NCBI GenBank assembly: GCA_963422755.1
Contig: OY730488.1
DNA: 64,000 bases
Strand: one strand, 5' to 3'
Source of the DNA: Dehalococcoidia bacterium
GTDB taxonomy: Bacteria > Chloroflexota > Dehalococcoidia > Bin125
Made by a program: the position numbers and the translations under genes. Of the stretch, positions 9,667-57,380 are shown in pieces (within the stretch, counting starts at the first letter, position 1; every line of letters begins with the position of its first letter). The notes beneath the pieces were generated by a model. The model was not told where the DNA came from. It saw nothing but the letters and a program-made list of their open reading frames with translations, and did not search any database.

Positions 9667-9894
9667 ATGGAAGACTTTATCGAATACGTCGCCAAGTGGA
9701 TGGTCGACGAGCCGGACGAACTCCGCGTCGAACGCATGCAGCGCGGCGACCACGTCGCCGTGCATCTCAACGTGCACACGGATGATATGGGGCGGATCAT
9801 CGGCCGCGAGGGACGCTTGGCGATGGCCATGCGCACGCTGTTGTCCGTGTCGGGCCACGCTCGCGCTGTTGACACCTCGCTCGACATCCGCTGA
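9667..9894 (+). CDS. KH-domain RNA-binding protein (YlqC/UPF0109 family)
   Basis: 75 aa with a GxxG KH motif (IIGREGRLAMAMRTLL). Conserved position between rpsP and rimM. Confidence 0.8.
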   Translation: MEDFIEYVAKWMVDEPDELRVERMQRGDHVAVHLNVHTDDMGRIIGREGRLAMAMRTLLSVSGHARAVDTSLDIR

Positions 9895-9911: not shown

Positions 9912-10460
9912 ATGGCCCGGCGTCTCGGTCAGACAGCGCCCGAGCAACGGATGCCGCGCGACGGCTTCCGCGCCATCGGGCTGATTGAGCGGCCGCGCGG
10001 CCTAAAGGGCGAGCTCAAGGTACGCTCTCTGACCGACTTCCCGGAGCGCTTCGCCCACGGTGCCCGCGTGTTCGTCGAAGGGTTGCCTCGCATCGTGCTG
10101 CATAGCAACTGGCGGAAGGGCGCCGTGTACATCTACATCGACGGCGTCGCGGACCACGATGGCGCCGAGGCATTGCGCGGCGAACTGATCGAAGTGCCCG
10201 TAGACGAGCGTCCCGACACAGACGAACCGTTTTGGTACGTCGAGGAGATCGAAGGTCTGCGGGTGCTCGACGAAGCGGGACTGGAGCTGGGCTGTGTCCG
10301 CGAGGTGCTACAAACGGGCGCCAACGACGTGTACGTCGTCGACCGCGGCACGTCCCGTGACTTGCTAGTCCCGGCCCTGTCCGACGTAGTGCTGGCCGTC
10401 GATCTCAGCGCGGGCGTCATCACCGTTGACCTGCCAGACGGACTATTGCCAACCAGCTAG
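9912..10460 (+). CDS. rimM: 16S rRNA processing protein RimM
   Basis: RimM N-domain ([25 protein letters not shown]) and PRC barrel C-domain. Start could alternatively be the ATG at 9951. Confidence 0.85.
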
Positions 10461-10529
10461 CCCGCTACCGCGCCGACCACCGCGCTGCATGCGGTGGTGA
10501 TGTACGCTAGAAGCGCTCTCGCACCACGT

Positions 10530-10605
10530 GGGGATATAGCTCAGTTGGGAGAGCGCGTCGTTCGCAACGACGAGGTCGGGGGTTCGAGTCCCCCTATCTC
10601 CACCA
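10530..10605 (+). tRNA. tRNA-Ala (anticodon CGC)
   Basis: GGGGATATAGCTCAGTTGGGAGAGCGC with G3:U70 Ala identity pair. Anticodon loop UUCGCAA, CCA encoded. Confidence 0.85.
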
Positions 10606-10624
10606 CCGCACTACCCAGCTAGCC

Positions 10625-11567
10625 TCACACCGAGCCTGTCACATGGTCGCGCAGGAAGTCGATCTGAGCATTGGTGTGGCCGTCAGGATCGTCGCCGAGC
10701 GGCAGCAGATGCCAACCCCCTGCAACCCGATGGAGCTGCGCCTGCGGAATCTCACGAGCCGAGTGTTCGGCGTGGGCAAAGGGAACGTCGCGGTCATGCG
10801 TACCGTGCACGACCAACGTGGGACACTGCACTTCTCTGAGCGGCAGGACGCCGATGTCGCGAAACTGACGCATGTCGTTATGAAAGCCCTCGCGCTGCAA
10901 CGGTGTCAGCGACGCTGACTCCAGCAGCTGGGCGAGGAACGCCCGTCGCGCCGGGTCGGCGAGAATACGATCGACTGTGCGCCGACGCTCGGCGGGCGTC
11001 AGCGTGCTCTCGAAGCTGACGAGCTGGTTGATAGCGAAGCGCGGCAGCCAGCGCATGGAGCTGCGCGTTGAGCCAGTGAAAGAACGCGCTACCGGTCAGG
11101 CTGACGAGCCAGTCGGGTACGTCGGGTTCGAATCGCTGCGAGATCGCGACCTCAAGGATCAGCGCGCTCGACCGTTCCGGGTACCGCGTGGCGAAGAGAA
11201 TCGAGCTCGGGCCGCCGCCTGAGACTCCATAGGCGGATGCGCGTTCGATTCCGAGCTCGTCCAACAGGGCGGCGATAGCGTCGGCTTGCTCCTCGAATGT
11301 ACGGCCTGTCGACAACGGCGTGCGCAGGTATCCCGGCCGCGACGGAGTAATGACATCGAAGCCCGCCTCGACGATCGGCACCGCGTAGAAGCTGGCCTGA
11401 TGGCCTTGCGGCGTGCCGTGGAACATCACCACGACCGGCGTGTCGGCATCGGCGCCAGCTGGTCGTTGACGGGCGAACTCCACGGGGCCGGCGGCGGTAT
11501 CGACCAACGTCGAGCCGGCGTTCAACCGCGCCACCGTTTCTGCACGGACGCCAAGGCCAAGGATCAC
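10625..11567 (-). pseudogene. Alpha/beta-hydrolase-fold protein, split by an apparent frameshift near ~11050
   Basis: Two overlapping minus-strand ORFs (10878-11567 and 10625-11056) in different frames. N-part carries the GVSGGG nucleophile elbow. C-part carries the conserved C-terminal half (VVHGTHDRDVPF...). Confidence 0.5.
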
Positions 11568-49111: not shown

Positions 49112-49221
49112 CTCGTTGGCTCAACTGGTCTCGCACCGAGGGCGCTGCGCTCCGACTGATTAGTGTCACGCGCGTTACAATGAGCGTGATCGATCTCGTT
49201 CTCATGCCCGAAGGAGCAGCC

Positions 49222-50429: not shown

Positions 50430-51191
50430 ATGGATATCCAGGGCAAGGTCGCGGTCGTCACCGGATCATCGTCGGGCGTCGGCGAGGCAACGGCGAAGCT
50501 GCTCGCTTCGCTCGGCGCGTCGGTGGTCGTCAACTACTTTCGCGGAGCTGAGGCGGGACAACGCGTGGCCGACGAGATCCAGGCCGAAGGCGGCGCTGCG
50601 ATCGCCGTTCAGGCCGACACCCGCTCCGACGCTGACTGTCGCAGGCTGATCCAGTCCGCAATCGACGAGTTCGGCCACCTGGAGATTCTGGTCAACAACG
50701 CCGGGATGACGCACTTCATCGCTCACGACGATCTCGAGGCGGTCACGGACGAGGTCTGGGACGATATCATCGGCGCGAATCTGCGCGGAGTCTTCAACTG
50801 CACGCGGGCCGCCGCTCCGCACATGCGCGCCGCCGGCGTAGGCGCGGTCGTCAATGTCAGCAGCATCGCCGGCGCGGGCGGCGGCGGTTCCTCCATTCCC
50901 TACGCCGCCAGCAAGGCGGGCGTCAACGTGATCACCAAATCACTGGCACGCGTGCTAGGGCCCGAGATCCGCATCAACACCATCGCGCCCGGCTTCATCG
51001 AGGGCCGCTGGCTCAGGGGCGGGCTCGGCGTAGAGACGTACGAAGCCGGTCGCAAGCGACTCGGCGAGACGGCCCCACTGCGTGGCGTCGCCACGCCCGA
51101 GCTCTGCGCCGACGCGATCGTCGCGCTGATCGAGCGGAACAGCTTCGTCACAGGCCAAACGATCACGGTAGACGGCGGCGCAACGCTGTAG
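50430..51191 (+). CDS. SDR-family short-chain dehydrogenase/reductase
   Basis: 253 aa. TGSSSGVGEA cofactor motif, catalytic YAASK, NNAG. Confidence 0.9.
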   Translation: MDIQGKVAVVTGSSSGVGEATAKLLASLGASVVVNYFRGAEAGQRVADEIQAEGGAAIAVQADTRSDADCRRLIQSAIDEFGHLEILVNNAGMTHFIAHDDLEAVTDEVWDDIIGANLRGVFNCTRAAAPHMRAAGVGAVVNVSSIAGAGGGGSSIPYAASKAGVNVITKSLARVLGPEIRINTIAPGFIEGRWLRGGLGVETYEAGRKRLGETAPLRGVATPELCADAIVALIERNSFVTGQTITVDGGATL

Positions 51192-51236
51192 GCCTGCCTA
51201 CCGCGGTACCATTGGGATACTGATAGAGATGATCCG

Positions 51237-52781
51237 ATGCCCAAACTGCAGGAAACTTTCAGCCGTCAAGCACTTATAGCAACGGCTACCAACTATCGCA
51301 ACGTCGCTGAAGCCATAATGGAGTTAGTCGATAATCCATTCGACTACCGTAGAGGTCGCCACCTTACTATCGATATTGCTATCGATCGTTCCAAAGATAT
51401 CCTTCGCATCACCGACTTCGGCGGCGAAGGCATGGACGATAACGCGCTGATCGATTGGATTCAATGGGGAGAAGGTCACAGCCACGGCGCACAGGACATC
51501 GGTCAATACCACGTTGGAGGCAAGTCAGCTGCGATCTATCTGGCAGAATCGCTGGAAGTGGTTTGCCGAAAGGCTGACGCTAACCAGATTTGGCGTTTCC
51601 ATGACCCTCATTGGGGATCGCGAACCTCTCCACTGAACACAGATGTAACCAAACTTTCTAACGTGCCGTCTACTCTATTCCGCCCTGTCACTAACGACCA
51701 AGGATTTGTTCAACTTACACTTAGTGGGCTTAAGCCTCATAGATACGAGACTGAAATTCTTCGGCAACGCCTGGCAGACACGTACCGCACACTTCTCGCG
51801 CAAGGTCACTGCACTATACGTATCAACAACAACGCCTTAGAGCCGATCGAGGTGCCATGGTCCGCCTCGATTCAGGAAGTTATCTTTGAACCGACAAAGT
51901 TGGAAAGTGGTATTCGCATCAAGGGGCGCATTGGCGCGGTCGATAAAGATCGTCTACCGACAGGTCGCGGATTTCGTTTTCAGCATGGGATCCGGACTGA
52001 ACACAACGGTAGGAAAATCACAGGCGGCGAAGAATTTGGCCATAACCTTAATGGGCGAGGGACGCTCATGCGCCTGTACGGAGAAGTGAGCATCAGCGGT
52101 GGAACACTCAGGCCAAATCAGCTGAAGACAGGATGGCCGTCCGACAGCGACGATTGGCAAGTGATCGAGGCTACGATGCACGAGCTTATGGCGAGTGTCG
52201 TACGGCAGCTGAACGAAGCCGCAGATGCGAAACCAGTTTCCCGACAGGAACGAAAACGGGCGAACAGTGCACGTAGACGAGTAGAACACGCCATGAAACG
52301 GCTGCACCAGATCGATCAGCTTGCAGGCAAAGGCGTTATCCCTCTTCGAACGGCACACGGGGGACGCAGGCCGCCATCAGAGCCGGCCAAGAGCGAAACT
52401 TCGTCACGGCCTCAGCGAACTCGAACTGAACCAACCAACCGTACGCCGCCTCCTACGAATCCGGTTGGCAGACTGTTACGGAAGGTAGGAGGAATGCCTC
52501 CTGTGCAGCTCGACGGGCTTGGTGACAAATCAGAACGTAGCGCCTGGCGAGAAGACCGCGATGCACGTACCATAGTCGTCAATACAGATTACCCTCTCTA
52601 CCAGTCGCTCGGCACGAATGAAGATTACATCTTTGAGTCGCTCGTGATGCACATGCTGAACGATGATGAGGAGCTGTCTCTCACCGAAGCAAAAAGCCTG
52701 TTCGACCAGATCATCTGGTTGGATCGCTCAGCCGAAGATGAAGAGCCCAGTCCGGAAGAGCTCGACGACATCGTCCCGTAG
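51237..52781 (+). CDS. GHKL-superfamily ATPase (MORC/Hsp90/MutL-like, HATPase_c_3-type) with uncharacterised C-terminal region; lower-GC foreign gene
   Basis: 514 aa. Bergerat-fold motifs: N-box AIMELVDNPFDY, G1 ITDFGGEGMD, G2 GQYHVGGKSAAIYLA. Followed by ~350 aa without recognisable domains, including a basic low-complexity stretch. Nucleotide composition visibly AT-richer than both flanks. Confidence 0.75.
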   Translation: MPKLQETFSRQALIATATNYRNVAEAIMELVDNPFDYRRGRHLTIDIAIDRSKDILRITDFGGEGMDDNALIDWIQWGEGHSHGAQDIGQYHVGGKSAAIYLAESLEVVCRKADANQIWRFHDPHWGSRTSPLNTDVTKLSNVPSTLFRPVTNDQGFVQLTLSGLKPHRYETEILRQRLADTYRTLLAQGHCTIRINNNALEPIEVPWSASIQEVIFEPTKLESGIRIKGRIGAVDKDRLPTGRGFRFQHGIRTEHNGRKITGGEEFGHNLNGRGTLMRLYGEVSISGGTLRPNQLKTGWPSDSDDWQVIEATMHELMASVVRQLNEAADAKPVSRQERKRANSARRRVEHAMKRLHQIDQLAGKGVIPLRTAHGGRRPPSEPAKSETSSRPQRTRTEPTNRTPPPTNPVGRLLRKVGGMPPVQLDGLGDKSERSAWREDRDARTIVVNTDYPLYQSLGTNEDYIFESLVMHMLNDDEELSLTEAKSLFDQIIWLDRSAEDEEPSPEELDDIVP

Positions 52782-52784
52782 CGG

Positions 52785-54056
52785 TTACACAGCCCGATAG
52801 CTGATTGGTAGGCGCTTGATGCCTCCGATCAGCTGGCTGGACAGGCGTTCCGCCTCTCCGTTGCGCTCGAACTGATCGAGCCGACCGATCACGTGACGGA
52901 AGATGGAGCGCATCTCCAGCCGGGCGAGGTTGGCGCCGAGGCAGAAGTGTTCGCCGAAGCCTCCGAAGGCGAGATGGTCGTTCGGTGAACGGTTGATGTC
53001 GAACTCGTCGGGACGTGCGAACACGTCCTCGTCGCGGTTGGCCGATGGATACCACATCGCCAGCGTCTCGCCCGCGCGGATCGGGACTCCGCGGATCTCC
53101 GTGTCACGCGTCGCCGTACGGGCGAAGTGGATGACCGGCGATGTCCAGCGCAGCATCTCCTCGACCGCGCTGTTCAGTAGCTGCGGATCGTCGCGCAGCC
53201 GCTCGAACTGTTCTGGATGCTCGATCAGCGCCAGCATGCCGCCCGACGTTGCGTTGCGCGTCGTTTCGTTGCCCGCCAGGATGAGCAGGATCGCGTAGGA
53301 CAGGATTTCCTGGTCGGGCATCGGCGCGCCGTCGATCTCCGCCTGTACGAGTGTCGTCATGACGCTCTCGTCGGGAGCGCAGCGCTTGCGCTCGATGTGC
53401 GCTGTGAAATAGCCCATCAGACCGCGCATGCCTGACTGCCAGGTCTCGCGTCGGCTGCGGCCGCGTTGGTACTCTGGGTCCTCCGAGCCGAGGAACTCGT
53501 TGGTCCAGCTGAAGATGTCCTCCCACGACTCGCGCTCGACCGCGAGTAGCTCGCAGATCGCGGCCATCGGCATCTTCGCCGCGACATCGCGGACGAAGTC
53601 CATCTCGCGCCGTCCGCTGAGCTGGTCGACCAGGTGCGCGGCGGCAGCATCGATCACCCGCTCGGCGATCTCGTCAATGCGTTCCTCGAGCAACCTCATA
53701 CCGCGTGGCGAGAAGCGACGGTTGGTCGCCGCGCGGTACTGGCCGTGCTCAGGCGGATCCATGTTGATCAAATTGGGAATCGCGAGCGACGGGTCGTTGG
53801 CGCCGCCGTCGCCCGAGCCAGCCGCGCGGACCACGAGCCGCTGACTGCTGATGAACGTCTCGGGGTCGCTGGAGATCGTCTGGATGTCGTCGTATTTGGT
53901 GATCGCCCAGAACGGCGTCACGCCTGGCTGCTCGTACCAGTAGACCGGCGCCTCGCGGCGCAGCAATGCCCACCCTGCCCACGGATAGCCGCGGCTGCCA
54001 TAGAGTTCTGGCGTGACGAGGTCAATCTGATCGAGTCTGCTCGCTGTTGTGGTCAT
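52785..54056 (-). CDS. Cytochrome P450
   Basis: 423 aa. Heme-binding loop FGGFGEHFCLGANLAR, K-helix ExxR, oxygen-binding region. Confidence 0.9.
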   Translation of the reverse strand: MTTTASRLDQIDLVTPELYGSRGYPWAGWALLRREAPVYWYEQPGVTPFWAITKYDDIQTISSDPETFISSQRLVVRAAGSGDGGANDPSLAIPNLINMDPPEHGQYRAATNRRFSPRGMRLLEERIDEIAERVIDAAAAHLVDQLSGRREMDFVRDVAAKMPMAAICELLAVERESWEDIFSWTNEFLGSEDPEYQRGRSRRETWQSGMRGLMGYFTAHIERKRCAPDESVMTTLVQAEIDGAPMPDQEILSYAILLILAGNETTRNATSGGMLALIEHPEQFERLRDDPQLLNSAVEEMLRWTSPVIHFARTATRDTEIRGVPIRAGETLAMWYPSANRDEDVFARPDEFDINRSPNDHLAFGGFGEHFCLGANLARLEMRSIFRHVIGRLDQFERNGEAERLSSQLIGGIKRLPISYRAV

Positions 54057-54095: not shown

Positions 54096-55382
54096 CTACT
54101 GCGCTTCGCGTGCTGAGAACGCAATGGGCAGATGCTTGATGCCACCCACAAAGCCTGACCGCAGTCGCTCGACCTCGCCGTCGAGCTGGATGTCATCGAG
54201 CCGATCGAGCACGTGCTTGAAGATCGAGCGCAACTCCATCCGCGCCAGGTTGGCGCCGAGGCAGAAGTGCTCACCGAAGCCGCCGAAGGCCAGGTGCTCA
54301 TTCGGTTCGCGGCTGATGTCGAATGTGTCGGGCTGGCTGAATATCTCCGCGTCGCGGTTGGCTGATGGGTACCACATCATCAGTTTGTCGCCGGCTGAGA
54401 TTAACTGGCCACCGATCTCCACATCGGCGGTCGCGAGCCGACCAAAGTGAATGATCGGAGAGGTCCAGCGCAGAATCTCCTCGATGGCGCTGTCCAGCAA
54501 GGCCGGATCGTCACGCAGTCGGCGCAACTGCTCTGGGTGCTCGATCAGCGCCAGCAGGCCGCCCGACGTTGCGTTGCGGGTCGTCTCGTTGCCACCCAGG
54601 ATCAGGATGAAGGCGTACGACAGCAGGTCGATCACGTTGAGTGGTTCGCCGTCTAGCTCGGCCTGCACCAGCGTGCTCATCAAATCATCGGCTGGCTGCT
54701 GACGCTTGTGCTCGGCCAGCTGCATGAAGTAACCGAACAGCGCCATCGCGCCAGCCTGCGCGGTTTCGCTCTGCGAGCGCCCGCGCTGGAACTCTGGATC
54801 GGCGGCGCCAATCGTCTCATTGGTCCAGAGGTGGATGTCATCCCAACGCTCGCGTGGTACGCCCAACAGCTCACAGATGGCCGCCAACGGCAGGCGGGCA
54901 GAGACATCAGCGACGAATTCTGCGCGCCCGCGCTTCGAGAGATCATCGACCAGTTCCAGAGCGACCCGATCGACGATGCCCGTAGCGATCTCGTCGATCC
55001 GTTCCTCCAGCAGCTGGAGGCCGCCCGGCGTGAAGCGTCGGTTGACCAGCGAGCGGTAGGCGGCATGCTCGGGCGGGTCCATCTCCAACAGGTGATGCGT
55101 GGGTTGCGAGCTGGCGAAATCGTCCTCGGACGGTTCGGGACGGATCGTGATATCGGTCTTGTTGGAAAAGGTCTGCGGGTCGCGCGAAATGCGCTGGATA
55201 TCGTGATATCTGGTGATCGCCCAGAATGGCGCGATGTTGGGGCGCTCATACCAGTACACGGGCGCGTGCGCCCGCAGATACGCCCAGTGCGGATAGGGAT
55301 AGCCGTTGACCACGTAGGCGTCGGGAGAGGTGAGGTCCACCTCGTCCAGCGATTGCGGTGTGGCGACGAACGCTGCGGTCAT
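54096..55382 (-). CDS. Cytochrome P450 (tandem paralog)
   Basis: 428 aa. FGGFGEHFCLGANLARMEL. About 55-60% identical by eye to the downstream P450. Confidence 0.9.
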   Translation of the reverse strand: MTAAFVATPQSLDEVDLTSPDAYVVNGYPYPHWAYLRAHAPVYWYERPNIAPFWAITRYHDIQRISRDPQTFSNKTDITIRPEPSEDDFASSQPTHHLLEMDPPEHAAYRSLVNRRFTPGGLQLLEERIDEIATGIVDRVALELVDDLSKRGRAEFVADVSARLPLAAICELLGVPRERWDDIHLWTNETIGAADPEFQRGRSQSETAQAGAMALFGYFMQLAEHKRQQPADDLMSTLVQAELDGEPLNVIDLLSYAFILILGGNETTRNATSGGLLALIEHPEQLRRLRDDPALLDSAIEEILRWTSPIIHFGRLATADVEIGGQLISAGDKLMMWYPSANRDAEIFSQPDTFDISREPNEHLAFGGFGEHFCLGANLARMELRSIFKHVLDRLDDIQLDGEVERLRSGFVGGIKHLPIAFSAREAQ

Positions 55383-55487
55383 GGCGTCTCTCCCAACCAG
55401 CGAGCGATAGACTCGCCCGAACAGGGCTTCGTTGCGAGCCTACCAATCCAACCCAGCGCATGGCGCGCCAGTCACAGCGGAATACAC

Positions 55488-57380
55488 ATGAGCGCGAAAC
55501 GGTCCATGCTTGGCGTCTATGAAGGATTCACCGATGCTATCGCCGACGGCTACGCGCGGGAATCCCAGTATCTAACGATGGCGGATGGTTGCCGCATCGC
55601 GATCGACGTGCTGCATCCGACACTCGGTGGCGAGATCGTTGATGGTCGGACGCCGACGGTGCTGCACGCGACGCCCTATCGGCGCGCGTTCGAGATCACG
55701 GGCAGGGCGGACCCGGTCGCGCGCTACGCCGAGGAACTGCGCAGCATGGAGCCCGGCCAACTGATCACGCAATATGAGGAGCGGCCGATCGCGCGGGATA
55801 TGATTCAGCACGGCTACCGATTCATCTCGGTCGACATCCGTGGCACCGGCGCCTCATTCGGCGCGGTGTACAACGATTCCTGGTTAGCCGGCCAAGACAT
55901 TGCCCAGGTGATTGACTGGATCTGCGAGCAGCCATGGTCGTCGGGGCGCGTCGGTATGGTCGGCATCTCGTACGAGGGGATGATGCAGTTCTTTACGGCG
56001 GCCCAGCGGCCTGTGGGGCTCAAGTGCATCGCCCCGCAGTATCCCGGCTTGCCGCAGTGTTACGTCGACGGGGGACTCGCGATCTCCAGCTTTGCGCGCG
56101 TCTGGGAACGGCTGCACAAGGGACTCTCGGAACACGAGCCGGCGGCACCCGTCGATGGACCCGAGGGTGAGCGCCTGCGCGACGCAGCGACCGCCGAACG
56201 CTCGTCCGACCGCTATCGCTGGGTAGAAACGTTCTCGAGCATGGATCCGCGCGACGTGACGCGCATGTCCTCATACGATGGCTTACGCCGACAGCAACGG
56301 CGCGCCGACGTCGGACTCGGTGAGGTGGCCAGCGGCTGGTTTGAGTCTTGCGACCTCGTGAACGCCAGCGGCGTCCCAACTTACCTGGTCACCGGGTGGT
56401 GGGACCTGACGTTCCCCGGCTATCTGATCGATGCATTCAACCGCCTGGACGTGCCCAAAAAGCTGATCGTGGGGCCGTGGAATCACGGGCAGGGCGGCGA
56501 TCCGGAGCTGCGCCGCTGGTTCGATTACTGGCTCAAGGACATCGACAACGGAGTGCTGGACGAGCCGCCCGTGCACTACGGCACCAGCGAGCCGTCGGGG
56601 GCGACGACCTGGAAGTCGGCGCCACGCCTGCCGCTGCCTGAAGCTGGCCTACGCGCGCACTGGCTGACCGCTGACGGCGCGCTCACAGTCGAGCGTCCCG
56701 GCGCAGCGGACACGCTGAGCTACGAGGTGGACCACACGGTCAGCCTGGGCGAGATGACGCGTCACAGCTACTACGTGGACGACATGTATATCAACACAAC
56801 CGACCTCAATGCGCGAGCCGAGCGATGCCTCACATTCACCAGCGGACCGCTGGCGGCCGATGTTGAAGTTACCGGCTGGCCCGCCATCGCGCTGGAACTG
56901 TCAACCTCCGCTGACTGTGGCGCAGTCGTGGTGACGCTGGAGCAACTCGACCAGGACGGATCGGCCGCCTATCTCTCGGAGGGATTCCTCAACCTCGAGC
57001 ATCGCCGTGTTGGAGGCGATCCAGGTGGACACGAGGGGCCTGTCTGGCATAGCTGGAGCAAGGCCGACCTCGCGCCGGTGGCGCCGGGCCAGGCGATGGA
57101 TGTGCAGGTCGAGCTGTATCCGATCTCATGCATCGCTCGCGCAGGTCAGCGGTTGCGGTTGACCATCGCCGGCGCCGATGCGGATAATCTGATCGTCCCC
57201 ACACAGGGCGGTGAGGCAACGCTGGCGATCCACGTTGGCGGCGAGCGAGGGGCGCGCCTGCTGCTGCCGATCGTGAACGAATCCGTCACACCAACGGCGC
57301 ATATCGTAGAGGGCGGCTTCAACGGAGGATCGGGCGGCTTCGCCTTCCGCCGCCCCGATGATCCACCGATGACACGCTAG
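55488..57380 (+). CDS. CocE/NonD-family hydrolase (X-Pro dipeptidyl-peptidase S15-like)
   Basis: Start at MSAKRSMLGV. Alpha/beta hydrolase domain with GISYEG nucleophile motif and C-terminal beta-sandwich. The 5' 780 nt of the listed ORF is antisense to the P450 and rejected. Confidence 0.8.
   Translation: MSAKRSMLGVYEGFTDAIADGYARESQYLTMADGCRIAIDVLHPTLGGEIVDGRTPTVLHATPYRRAFEITGRADPVARYAEELRSMEPGQLITQYEERPIARDMIQHGYRFISVDIRGTGASFGAVYNDSWLAGQDIAQVIDWICEQPWSSGRVGMVGISYEGMMQFFTAAQRPVGLKCIAPQYPGLPQCYVDGGLAISSFARVWERLHKGLSEHEPAAPVDGPEGERLRDAATAERSSDRYRWVETFSSMDPRDVTRMSSYDGLRRQQRRADVGLGEVASGWFESCDLVNASGVPTYLVTGWWDLTFPGYLIDAFNRLDVPKKLIVGPWNHGQGGDPELRRWFDYWLKDIDNGVLDEPPVHYGTSEPSGATTWKSAPRLPLPEAGLRAHWLTADGALTVERPGAADTLSYEVDHTVSLGEMTRHSYYVDDMYINTTDLNARAERCLTFTSGPLAADVEVTGWPAIALELSTSADCGAVVVTLEQLDQDGSAAYLSEGFLNLEHRRVGGDPGGHEGPVWHSWSKADLAPVAPGQAMDVQVELYPISCIARAGQRLRLTIAGADADNLIVPTQGGEATLAIHVGGERGARLLLPIVNESVTPTAHIVEGGFNGGSGGFAFRRPDDPPMTR

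What the first reader, a model, noticed from the sequence alone, without database searches (positions are those of the whole stretch)
51237..52781. Single-gene lower-GC island encoding a MORC/Hsp90-like GHKL ATPase with an uncharacterised C-terminal half (candidate defence or selfish element)
This 1.5-kb gene is visibly AT-richer (roughly 50% GC) than its flanks (~66%). It is inserted between a native amidohydrolase-SDR pair and two convergent P450 genes, with only ~3 bp to the converging stop. There are no integrase, tRNA or obvious direct repeats at the borders. The N-terminus carries the Bergerat ATPase motifs of the HATPase_c_3 class (AIMELVDNPFDY, ITDFGGEGMD, GQYHVGGKSAAIYLA). The remaining ~350 aa, including a basic low-complexity stretch (RQERKRANSARRR...RPQRTRTEPTNRTPPP) and an acidic tail, match nothing I recognise. 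GHKL/MutL-like ATPases are recurrent components of prokaryotic anti-phage and restriction-like systems, usually with nuclease partners. Here the gene stands alone, which suggests either a single-protein system or a new fusion architecture.
Basis: partly seen in the sequence, partly recalled or inferred. Interest (0 to 1): 0.75.

Follow-up and report, generated by a model that had tools for sequence, protein, structure and literature searches.

The report
Standalone MORC-like ATPase in defence hotspot
This low-GC gene encodes a bacterial relative of the eukaryotic MORC gene-silencing ATPases and sits alone in a chromosomal slot that, in sister genomes, is empty or holds restriction enzymes, so it is probably an uncatalogued one-gene defence against foreign DNA.

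Summary
ORF 51237-52781 (+, 514 aa) has GC 0.535 and GC3 0.54, against GC3 0.80-0.84 in its neighbours. It is the only compositional outlier among 49 ORFs in the window. It lies 45 bp after an SDR gene and 3 bp before a convergent P450 gene, with no tRNA, integrase or flanking repeats.

The protein is a MORC-type ATPase. It has a GHKL domain, an S5 transducer with the MORC lysine motif, a basic helix, a flexible linker and a family-specific C-terminal domain with no nuclease signature. The closest solved structures are MORC3 and MORC4.

The SDR|P450 junction is a defence hotspot in related Dehalococcoidia MAGs. It is empty (21-28 bp) in 7 relatives and near-empty in 7. Elsewhere it holds deeply divergent MORC alleles (35-70% identity), GmrSD type IV enzymes, a type II R-M pair, a type IIG R-M fusion, or HARE-HTH proteins. 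Two genomes about 97.5% identical in their flanks carry MORC alleles only 41% identical, which is a clean cassette swap.

In other lineages the family is paired or fused with a HARE-HTH protein; the window has none. PADLOC does not recognise the protein. Defence function and mechanism are inferred, not shown. It is a new variant of a known kind.

The parts
50430..51191 (+). Left anchor of the hotspot: conserved short-chain dehydrogenase (SDR) gene
   Evidence: 92-94% aa identity to orthologues in L001, L002, L005 and many Dehalococcoidia MAGs. Pfam adh_short on the orthologues.
51192..51236 (+). 45-bp upstream spacer, left edge of the cargo; no promoter consensus found
   Evidence: In the L002/L009 pair the swapped segment begins about 60 bp upstream of the MORC start.
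51237..52781 (+). MORC-like GHKL ATPase gene (514 aa), low GC (0.535; GC3 0.54); the cargo
51237..51731 (+). GHKL (Bergerat) ATPase domain, residues 1-165; motif I E29/N33, motif II D60-G62-G63-G65, motif III G89-G94-G95-K96
   Evidence: Pfam HATPase_c_3. These residues are invariant in 62 homologues. AF2 pLDDT is mostly 88-98.
51732..52148 (+). S5-fold transducer domain, residues ~166-304, with invariant G251, R253, R259, E265, G282, P293 and K297 (putative gamma-phosphate lysine)
   Evidence: The family profile aligns 249-306 to MORC4/MORC3 'G..NRLI...G.IE...LKP..NKQDF'. Foldseek's top hits are the MORC3/4 ATPase cassettes over ~390 columns. Invariance.
52149..52328 (+). Two long helices (305-330 acidic; 331-364 basic, family mean charge +6, conserved R336/K340/R341); likely DNA-contact or coiled-coil arm
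   Evidence: AF2 secondary structure; charge conservation.
52329..52460 (+). Disordered Pro/Gly/Ser/Thr-rich linker (365-408) with conserved GGRRPP and TPPP motifs
   Evidence: pLDDT below 60; conservation of G376, R377, T403, P406.
52461..52736 (+). Family-specific acidic alpha/beta C-terminal domain (409-500; invariant R434, N449, P453; near-invariant Y464, E467, W494); no catalytic signature
52737..52781 (+). Acidic tail (…EEPSPEELDDIVP) and stop codon
52782..52784 (.). 3-bp right junction to the convergent P450 stop
   Evidence: In L002/L009 the right breakpoint of the cassette swap coincides with the P450 stop.
52785..54056 (-). Right anchor of the hotspot: conserved cytochrome P450 gene
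   Evidence: 82-85% aa identity to orthologues. Pfam p450 on the orthologues.

Best explanation
The gene encodes a prokaryotic MORC-type ATPase. Its parts are a GHKL domain, an S5 transducer, a basic helix, a flexible linker and a C-terminal domain. It is the sole cargo of a small chromosomal defence hotspot: the convergent SDR|P450 junction of a clade of Dehalococcoidia. Cargo in this slot turns over by recombination through the conserved flanking genes, not by a dedicated mobile element. I infer that the protein is a one-gene system against invading DNA (phage or other mobile elements). By analogy with MORC and MutL, two protomers would be held together constitutively, perhaps through the helices or the C-terminal domain. 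ATP binding would then dimerise the GHKL heads, closing a ring around DNA that is contacted by the basic helix and linker. Trapping or compacting the foreign DNA would block its replication or expression, or mark it for host nucleases. In sister lineages a HARE-HTH module, as an adjacent gene or a C-terminal fusion, would add DNA or DNA-modification recognition. Shown here: the domain identity, the intact catalytic motifs, the hotspot, the cassette swapping and the HARE-HTH linkage. Inferred: the defence function, the dimeric clamp, and compaction rather than cleavage.
For: Identity. HATPase_c_3 scores above its cut-off, and all Bergerat residues plus K297 are invariant in 62 homologues. The family profile hits MORC4 (3.8e-7) and MORC3 (1.7e-6) in two stretches, GHKL and S5. 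The AF2 model has pLDDT 86.8 and pTM 0.70, and its best Foldseek matches are MORC3 (1e-13) and MORC4, followed by TRAP1, SMCHD1 and MORC2-DNA.

Hotspot. Among SDR-anchored loci the slot is 21-28 bp in 7 genomes and 53-222 bp in 7. Elsewhere it carries GmrSD enzymes (L012, L032), TdeIII REase plus MTase (L029), a type IIG R-M fusion (L048), a radical-SAM protein (L024), HARE-HTH proteins, or MORC alleles. All cargo is low-GC.

Turnover. The flanks are equidistant among genomes (dxr 84-85%, SDR 92-94%), but the MORC alleles are 69, 66 and 42% identical. The slot alleles fall into at least 4 deep lineages interleaved with non-syntenic homologues. L002 and L009 share 97.3-97.6% nucleotide identity in their flanks but have no nucleotide similarity across the cassette, and the MORC alleles are 41% identical over the ATPase module.

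DNA link. Helix 331-364 is conserved as basic. A HARE-HTH partner lies upstream in L004, L089, L091, L092, L093 and L104, and is fused in the P0063/64/68/74/77 alleles. Iyer et al. 2008 (PMC2292703) place prokaryotic MORCs in R-M contexts. MORC2 acts as an ATP-dependent DNA clamp and compactor (PMC12216690).

Not mobile-element borne. There are no hits in phage records, IMG/VR or plasmids.
Against: There is no experimental evidence, and guilt by association with a hotspot is probabilistic. No effector (nuclease, TIR, protease motif, etc.) is detectable in the protein or in the slot. Classic prokaryotic MORCs are described with helicase, REase or MTase partners, which are absent here. PADLOC has no model that matches. 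Dimerisation and DNA binding were not tested. I examined only about 10 kb on each side of the SDR anchor, so genomes with an empty slot might carry a copy elsewhere, as L010 does in a neighbouring gap.
Confidence: 0.6

Rival explanations
1. It is one subunit of a multi-gene restriction-like system whose partners (a nuclease, helicase or methylase, or the coiled-coil HARE-HTH protein) are encoded elsewhere in the genome. On its own the ATPase only remodels or loops DNA for them.
For: Iyer et al. 2008 report about 70% of prokaryotic MORCs next to SFII helicases and nucleases. This family has a recurrent HARE-HTH neighbour or fusion in other lineages. No effector domain was found in the protein.
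Against: In the window, L001, L002, L009 and L016 the slot holds this gene only. The L002/L009 swap exchanges exactly one gene, which suggests the gene is the selectable unit. Across 46 neighbours in 15 diverse loci the only recurrent neighbour family is HARE-HTH, with no nuclease, helicase or MTase. No HARE-HTH homologue is detectable in the 64-kb window.
Confidence: 0.2
2. It is a lineage-specific housekeeping chromosome-organisation or repair ATPase (MutL/Hsp90-like) that is an old resident of this housekeeping neighbourhood. Its low GC would reflect low expression or amino-acid composition.
For: It occupies the same position downstream of frr-uppS-cdsA-dxr-rseP in L001, L002 and L005. There are no mobility genes. 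Orthologues elsewhere sit among metabolic genes.
Against: The slot is empty in at least 14 close relatives and holds R-M or GmrSD genes in others. The allele phylogeny is incongruent with the flanks, and there is a clean swap at about 97.5% flank identity. GC3 is 0.54 against ~0.8. The family is sparse, with small clusters.
Confidence: 0.07
3. It is a selfish or addictive element, or cargo of an unrecognised mobile element, that inserts at convergent intergenic sites and gives the host no benefit.
For: It is compositionally foreign, patchy and horizontally exchanged. A related allele occupies a second nearby gap in L010.
Against: There is no transposase, integrase, terminal inverted repeat or target duplication at the occupied or empty sites. 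No toxin-antitoxin-like partner is present. The protein is absent from phage, viral-contig and plasmid collections. The other tenants of the slot are bona fide defence genes.
Confidence: 0.08

Closest known systems
Prokaryotic MORC / paraMORC GHKL-S5 ATPases of restriction-modification systems (Iyer, Abhiman & Aravind 2008, PMC2292703)
   Same: It has a GHKL domain with all ATP-binding motifs and an S5 transducer with a conserved basic residue. The G251…R259 pair has the spacing of the MORC 'GhXhhpXXRhl' motif. Its distribution is patchy and horizontally transferred, and its context is genetic conflict.
   Different: No SFII helicase, REase or methylase is adjacent. It has a distinct C-terminal domain with no nuclease motif (unlike paraMORC3), no TIR (unlike paraMORC4) and no HxH (unlike paraMORC5). 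The partner, where present, is a coiled-coil HARE-HTH protein. Pfam's MORC S5 model does not detect it in any of 62 members.
Eukaryotic MORC3/MORC4/MORC2 ATPase modules (PDB 5ix2, 7k7t, 9cdj)
   Same: They are the best sequence-profile and fold matches over GHKL plus S5. The P-x-x-x-K lysine motif is shared (LKPxxNKQDF against P293-N-Q-L-K297). MORC2 is an ATP-dependent DNA clamp and compactor, which is the mechanism I infer here.
   Different: Identity is only 14-16%. There is no CW zinc finger, chromodomain or the MORC2-type coiled-coil insertion. The linker and C-terminal domain are different, and the setting is bacterial.
VcSduA / Shedu type I-D (GHKL ATPase + clamp + DUF4263 nuclease; PMC12137116)
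   Same: It is a single-polypeptide defence protein with an N-terminal GHKL ATPase and a middle clamp-like domain. It is an experimentally validated precedent for a GHKL-led one-gene system.
Core defence hotspots flanked by conserved genes (e.g. Pseudomonas aeruginosa cDHS, PMC10250203; E. coli defence islands, PMC10121019)
   Same: A fixed chromosomal slot between conserved core genes has variable, mutually exclusive, low-GC defence cargo and empty alleles.
   Different: The slot is very small, usually one or two genes. It lies at a convergent stop-stop junction in uncultured Dehalococcoidia, with no mobile-element hallmarks.
MutL and Hsp90/HtpG
   Different: There are no Pfam or NCBIfam hits to MutL or HtpG families. 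MORCs outrank Hsp90 and GyrB in both searches. The C-terminal match is not significant.

Membership tests
GHKL (Bergerat-fold) ATPase superfamily | Motif I (E…N), motif II (DxGxG), motif III (GxxGxG-type lid/phosphate loop) and a Bergerat fold | tested here: met
   E29/N33, D60-G62-G63-G65 and G89-G94-G95-K96 are invariant in 62 homologues. Pfam HATPase_c_3 scores 30.9 bits against a cut-off of 25, and hits 62 of 62 members. The fold matches GHKL structures.
MORC family sensu Iyer et al. 2008 | S5-fold transducer immediately after the GHKL domain, supplying a conserved basic residue | tested here: met
   The AF2 model has an alpha/beta domain at 166-304. Foldseek aligns ~390 columns to the MORC3/4 ATPase cassettes. 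Invariant K297 aligns with the MORC 'NKQDF' lysine.
MORC family sensu Iyer et al. 2008 | MORC-specific GhXhhpXXRhl motif in the S5 domain | tested here: inconclusive
   Invariant G251 and R259 have the right spacing (+8) and align to MORC3/4 G…R. The hydrophobic positions are not conserved (family 'G-I-R-T-E-F-N-G-R-x-I'). The S5 stretch alone is weak (i-E 0.5-1.1). Pfam's MORC S5 model hits 0 of 62 members.
MORC/paraMORC restriction-modification operons | Conserved neighbourhood with an SFII helicase, restriction endonuclease and/or DNA methylase | tested here: not met
   The window slot holds only this gene. Among 46 neighbours in 15 diverse loci, HARE-HTH is the only recurrent family.
paraMORC3 (standalone GHKL-S5 with C-terminal RE-fold nuclease) | C-terminal E-D-ExK restriction-endonuclease-fold domain | tested here: not met
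Shedu type I-D (VcSduA-like) | DUF4263 PD-(D/E)xK nuclease domain at the C-terminus | tested here: not met
   There is no DUF4263 or Shedu hit in Pfam at E<=1 or in PADLOC at E<=1, and none in 62 family members.
Hsp90/HtpG chaperones | Hsp90 middle domain and C-terminal dimerisation domain; HtpG family model | tested here: not met
MutL mismatch-repair proteins | DNA_mis_repair S5 domain and MutL_C dimerisation/endonuclease domain | tested here: not met
   Neither Pfam domain is detected in the query or in any of 62 homologues. No MutL appears among the top 50 Foldseek matches.
Catalogued anti-phage systems (PADLOC-DB 2.0.0) | A match to any system protein model | tested here: not met
   There are 0 families at E<=1 for the query and none for the short allele L016. 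DefenseFinder models were not available.
Chromosomal defence hotspot | A fixed slot between conserved core genes, with empty alleles, variable mutually exclusive cargo enriched in known defence genes, and compositionally foreign cargo | tested here: met
   There are 7 empty and 7 near-empty alleles. Cargo includes GmrSD (2), type II R-M, type IIG R-M, radical SAM, HARE-HTH proteins and MORC alleles. Cargo GC is 0.51-0.58 against flanks of 0.62-0.67. A cassette swap occurs at about 97.5% flank identity.
Integrative mobile element (island with integrase/tRNA/att repeats) | An integrase or transposase, a tRNA target, and direct or inverted terminal repeats | tested here: not met
   There is no tRNA, no significant border repeats, and no scars when empty and occupied junctions are compared.

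The most novel reading that the evidence does not exclude
This is a nuclease-free, single-protein bacterial immune system. A MORC-type ATP-driven clamp entraps and compacts or silences invading DNA, with target or modification reading supplied in some alleles by a HARE-HTH module. That would make it a prokaryotic counterpart, and possibly an ancestor, of MORC-mediated silencing of transposons and viruses in eukaryotes.
Probability: 0.22. Interest if true: 0.85.

Novelty: new variant of a known kind. Interest (0 to 1): 0.62.

Why it matters
Eukaryotic MORCs silence transposons and viral DNA. Their bacterial relatives were predicted in 2008 to work in restriction-like systems, but I found no standalone bacterial MORC shown or catalogued as a defence system in PADLOC 2.0 or in the literature I could search. 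This family has three useful properties. It is compact (514 aa). It is clearly under the turnover regime typical of immune genes. It lacks any recognisable effector. If it protects on its own, it would add a DNA-clamping or silencing mode to bacterial immunity and another deep link between bacterial and eukaryotic genome defence. The MORC/HARE-HTH pairing (adjacent, fused or absent) is a natural experiment in how target recognition is added to the ATPase. The locus also shows that small 'core' defence hotspots with clean one-gene cassette swaps exist in uncultured Dehalococcoidia.

Tried and rejected
- Hsp90/HtpG-like chaperone: rejected, because MORCs outrank Hsp90 in both searches and no HtpG model hits.
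- Shedu-like GHKL-nuclease fusion: rejected.
- Recent arrival by an integrative element: rejected, with no tRNA, repeats or integrase.
- 'Ancient resident' on the basis of synteny in L001, L002 and L005: rejected after wider sampling showed empty slots and incongruent alleles.
- Phage, plasmid or viral-contig origin: no hits.
- Small HARE-HTH slot proteins as decayed remnants of MORC-HARE fusions: they match only the HTH tail and have their own coiled-coil N-terminus, so they are a separate gene family and not fragments.
- ORFs downstream of the short alleles as split-off partners: they look like spurious out-of-frame ORFs of a flanking gene.
- Acidic 'DDIV' tail as a family motif: it is not family-wide.
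- The afdb50 fold library was unavailable.
- Exact look-up of the window protein in the contig index found nothing.
- Cluster look-ups gave no organism names for distant members.
Full report
**1. The observation**

Its GC is 0.535 against 0.650 for the whole window. At third codon positions the contrast is stronger, 0.54 against 0.80-0.84 in seven neighbouring genes. Among 49 ORFs of at least 150 aa in the 64-kb window (GC3 mean 0.778, sd 0.054) it is the only marked outlier. The sliding GC profile dips to 0.51-0.58 only between about 51.2 and 53.0 kb.

The gene begins 45 bp after the stop of an SDR gene and ends 3 bp before the stop of a convergent P450 gene. There is no tRNA in 45-60 kb. There are only short chance repeats at the borders. 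No promoter or terminator consensus was found.

**2. What the protein is**

A search of 5.8 billion proteins found 87 homologues. Nearly all are about 500 aa, align over 92-100% of the query, and carry no name or are called 'ATP-binding protein' from Chloroflexota/Dehalococcoidia MAGs. In a 62-sequence alignment (A1) these residues are invariant:

- Motif I: E29, N33
- Motif II: D60, G62, G63, G65
- Motif III: G89, G94, K96
- A second cluster: G251, R253, R259, E265, F267, G282, P293, K297
- A C-terminal set: R434, N449, P453

A profile of A1 searched against all PDB sequences gives MORC4 (3.8e-7) and MORC3 (1.7e-6) as best hits, in two stretches. One is the GHKL domain. The other is residues 249-306, aligned to the MORC S5 transducer. 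There G251, R259, E265, G282, P293 and K297 coincide with the MORC residues of 'G..NRLI..E..G…G.IE…LKP..NKQDF'.

The AlphaFold2 model built on A1 is confident (mean pLDDT 86.8, pTM 0.70) and shows this architecture:

| Residues | Element |
|---|---|
| 1-165 | GHKL domain |
| ~166-304 | alpha/beta S5-like domain |
| 305-330, 336-364 | two long helices |
| ~365-408 | disordered linker |
| 409-510 | compact alpha/beta domain |

Foldseek against PDB ranks the MORC3 and MORC4 ATPase cassettes first (1e-13, about 390 aligned columns). TRAP1, SMCHD1, MORC2-DNA, GyrB and Topo VI-B follow. The protein is therefore a MORC-type GHKL-S5 ATPase and not an Hsp90.

Iyer et al. (PMC2292703) define MORCs by GHKL plus S5 plus a 'GhXhhpXXRhl' motif. 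Here the G and R are invariant with the correct spacing, but the hydrophobic positions differ. Pfam's MORC S5 model detects none of the 62 members. I therefore place the family inside the MORC/paraMORC radiation, closest to MORC, and do not call it a canonical MORC.

**3. The C-terminal part**

Helix 331-364 is basic across the family (mean net charge +6; conserved R336, K340, R341). The linker is rich in Pro, Gly, Ser and Thr, with conserved GGRRPP and TPPP motifs. The C-terminal domain is acidic (mean -6.5).

**4. Genomic context: a defence hotspot**

At first the gene looked like an old resident. Homologues at 70%, 66% and 42% identity sit at the same SDR→gene←P450 junction, downstream of the same rpsB-tsf-pyrH-frr-uppS-cdsA-dxr-rseP block (L001, L002, L005). 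Two things contradicted that reading.

First, the flanking genes are equally related in all three genomes (dxr 84-85%, SDR 92-94%, amidohydrolase 93-95%, P450 82-85%). The ATPase is 69, 66 and 42% identical, and the 42% allele is more distant than non-syntenic homologues from unrelated loci at 49-50%.

Second, anchoring a search on the SDR gene retrieved 80 loci from species-representative genomes. The closest are all Dehalococcoidia/Chloroflexota MAGs. In these the junction has the following states:

| Slot state | Loci |
|---|---|
| Empty, 21-28 bp | L017, L018, L021, L022, L025, L026, L030 |
| Near-empty, 53-222 bp non-coding | L013, L014, L015, L019, L023, L027, L028 |
| MORC-family alleles, 35-70% identical to the query | window, L001, L002, L009, L011, L016, L040, L044, L054 |
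| GmrSD-type type IV restriction enzymes (PADLOC HEC-05 / HEC-06) | L012, L032 |
| TdeIII restriction enzyme plus N4/N6 methylase | L029 |
| HSDR_N + N6_Mtase + Eco57I fusion (type IIG-like) | L048 |
| Radical-SAM protein with weak viperin similarity | L024 |
| Small HARE-HTH proteins | L010, L031, L036, L038 |

All cargo is low-GC (0.51-0.58) against flanks of 0.62-0.67. Empty and filled junctions show no target duplication or terminal repeats. This matches the definition of a chromosomal defence hotspot flanked by core genes (compare PMC10250203 and PMC10121019).

**5. Cassette turnover**

A neighbour-joining tree of the ATPase module puts the slot alleles into at least four deep lineages. 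The window/L001/L002 clade is sister to non-syntenic alleles (L003, L004, P0008, P0016, P0025) and not to the other slot alleles.

The clearest case is L002 against L009. Their flanks are 97.3-97.6% identical in DNA over 9.9 kb on the left and 3.8 kb on the right. Between L002 9941-11553 and L009 10876-12511 there is no detectable nucleotide similarity, and the two MORC proteins are 41% identical. The right breakpoint is the P450 stop codon, and the left one lies about 60 bp upstream of the MORC start. So one gene was exchanged cleanly between near-conspecific genomes, most simply by homologous recombination in the conserved flanks (inference).

The low GC is therefore a property of a horizontally circulating gene pool. 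Orthologues are 7-17 points below their flanks in high-GC hosts and roughly equal to them in low-GC hosts.

**6. Is it really alone?**

In the window it is. The gene fills the slot, and tblastn finds no HARE-HTH partner in the 64 kb. Across the family, however, one partner recurs. A 146-170-aa protein with an N-terminal coiled coil and a C-terminal HARE-HTH lies immediately upstream of the MORC gene in L004, L089, L091, L092, L093/L094 and L104. HARE-HTH is the only Pfam family shared by more than two of 46 neighbours from 15 diverse loci. In the alleles P0063, P0064, P0068, P0074 and P0077 a HARE-HTH is fused after the C-terminal domain.

HARE-HTH is an R-M-derived DNA-binding module proposed to discriminate DNA modification (PMC3417536). 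A short subfamily (~405 aa; L016, L040, L054, P0100) replaces the linker and C-terminal domain with a short helical tail. So the ATPase-S5-helix core is constant and the C-terminal recognition or accessory modules vary. No nuclease, helicase or methylase recurs.

**7. Distribution**

An exhaustive profile search of 1.84 billion cluster representatives finds 121 at E<=1e-30 and 404 at E<=1e-10, mostly about 500 aa and full-length. Ten distant representatives that I looked up are all unnamed metagenomic proteins in tiny clusters. There are no relatives in 50,697 phage records, 2.9 million IMG/VR contigs or, effectively, 72,556 plasmids. PADLOC-DB 2.0 has no matching model. The papers I could search contain no MORC-type one-gene defence system or MORC/HARE-HTH pairing. 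The nearest validated precedent is VcSduA, a GHKL-clamp-DUF4263 nuclease of the Shedu family (PMC12137116), whose nuclease domain is absent here.

**8. Most likely mechanism**

Shown here:

- an intact MORC-type ATPase module with every catalytic residue conserved
- a conserved basic helix and flexible linker
- no recognisable effector
- residence in a defence hotspot, with immune-gene-like turnover
- evolutionary linkage to a DNA-reading HARE-HTH

Inferred: the protein works as a dimeric ATP-operated clamp, like MORC2 (PMC12216690) and MutL. ATP-driven GHKL dimerisation would close a ring around DNA held by the basic helix and linker. That would entrap or compact invading DNA and block its replication or expression, or expose it to host nucleases. 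Where HARE-HTH modules are present they would tune target choice.

My confidences are about 0.6 that the gene is a defence or conflict gene of this kind, and about 0.2-0.25 that it acts alone without a nuclease by clamping or compaction.

Rival explanations:

- a subunit of a dispersed multi-gene system (0.2)
- a selfish element (0.08)
- a housekeeping chromosome-organising ATPase (0.07)

**9. Verdict**

- The family is MORC-type and not Hsp90-type.
- About half of the 'unknown' region is the S5 transducer plus a basic helix.
- The island is cargo of a recombination-driven defence hotspot and not an insertion by a mobile element.

The finding is a new variant of a known kind. GHKL-S5 ATPases in prokaryotic conflict systems were predicted in 2008, but this standalone architecture, its HARE-HTH partnership and its hotspot behaviour are not catalogued in the resources I could query. 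Function is untested.

Noticed in passing
L001 ~9830-9860; L002 and L009 just after the SDR stop; L016, L027; variants in L023, L028: A GC-rich hairpin (GTCCCCGCCnCCGAGCGGGGAC; variant GTCCCCGAyTCATTCGGGGAC) recurs immediately downstream of the SDR stop in several relatives, in both occupied and near-empty slots. It is absent from the window. It may be a terminator or a REP-like element that marks the hotspot edge.
   Followed up: no
L004 9486-9926; L089 3285-3776; L091 5498-5986; L092 696-1067; L093 1808-2320; L104; slot proteins in L010, L031, L036, L038: A family of small coiled-coil + HARE-HTH proteins lies directly upstream of MORC-family genes in other lineages. It also occupies the SDR|P450 slot on its own in some genomes. 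The L010 copy has a sub-threshold WH_Rok match (E = 5e-4).
   Followed up: partly
L010 6101-7543 (rseP|amidohydrolase gap); window 49112-49179: There is a second variable gap in the same neighbourhood. In L010 a MORC-family allele (39% identical to the query) sits between rseP and the amidohydrolase, where the window has only 69 bp. Several relatives have 0.5-1 kb there.
   Followed up: no
L045-L047, L052, L055, L058-L081 (SDR match at locus position ~10001-10759): The SDR neighbour has 76-79% identical homologues in Acidobacteriota MAGs (Thermoanaerobaculia, 'Ca. Multivorans', Holophagales) that lack the dxr/rseP/P450 synteny. That is unusually high for different phyla and suggests inter-phylum transfer, possibly among co-resident symbionts. 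Several MAG names look like those of sponge-microbiome studies, which I did not verify.
   Followed up: no
window 52785-54056 (-) and 54096-55382 (-): There are two tandem paralogous P450 genes (57-62% identical to each other's orthologues). L005 has the same arrangement, whereas L001 and L002 carry only one.
   Followed up: no
window 54708-57380 (+): The mechanical 890-aa ORF is over-extended and overlaps the second P450 on the opposite strand. By tblastn to orthologues, the real gene is the ~626-aa Peptidase_S15/PepX_C protein ending at 57380.
   Followed up: partly
window 52737-52778; L016, L040, L054, P0100, P0084 C-termini: The window allele ends in an acidic tail '…EELDDIVP'. The short (~405 aa) subfamily and P0084 end in similar DDIV-type tails, but most family members do not. 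By my own recollection it is reminiscent of SSB-type acidic C-terminal tips; I did not test this.
   Followed up: partly
L024 5722-8520: In one relative the slot holds a 362-aa radical-SAM protein with weak similarity to prokaryotic viperins (PADLOC pVip 4e-8; Pfam Radical_SAM just below its cut-off), plus a 196-aa protein with no match. This may be another uncatalogued defence cargo.
   Followed up: no
L033 10860-11426; L034 10797-11414 (-); L037 10834-11436 (-): Three relatives carry slot inserts of about 0.9 kb with 188-205-aa ORFs. The L033 ORF has no Pfam or PADLOC match; the other two were not scanned.
   Followed up: no
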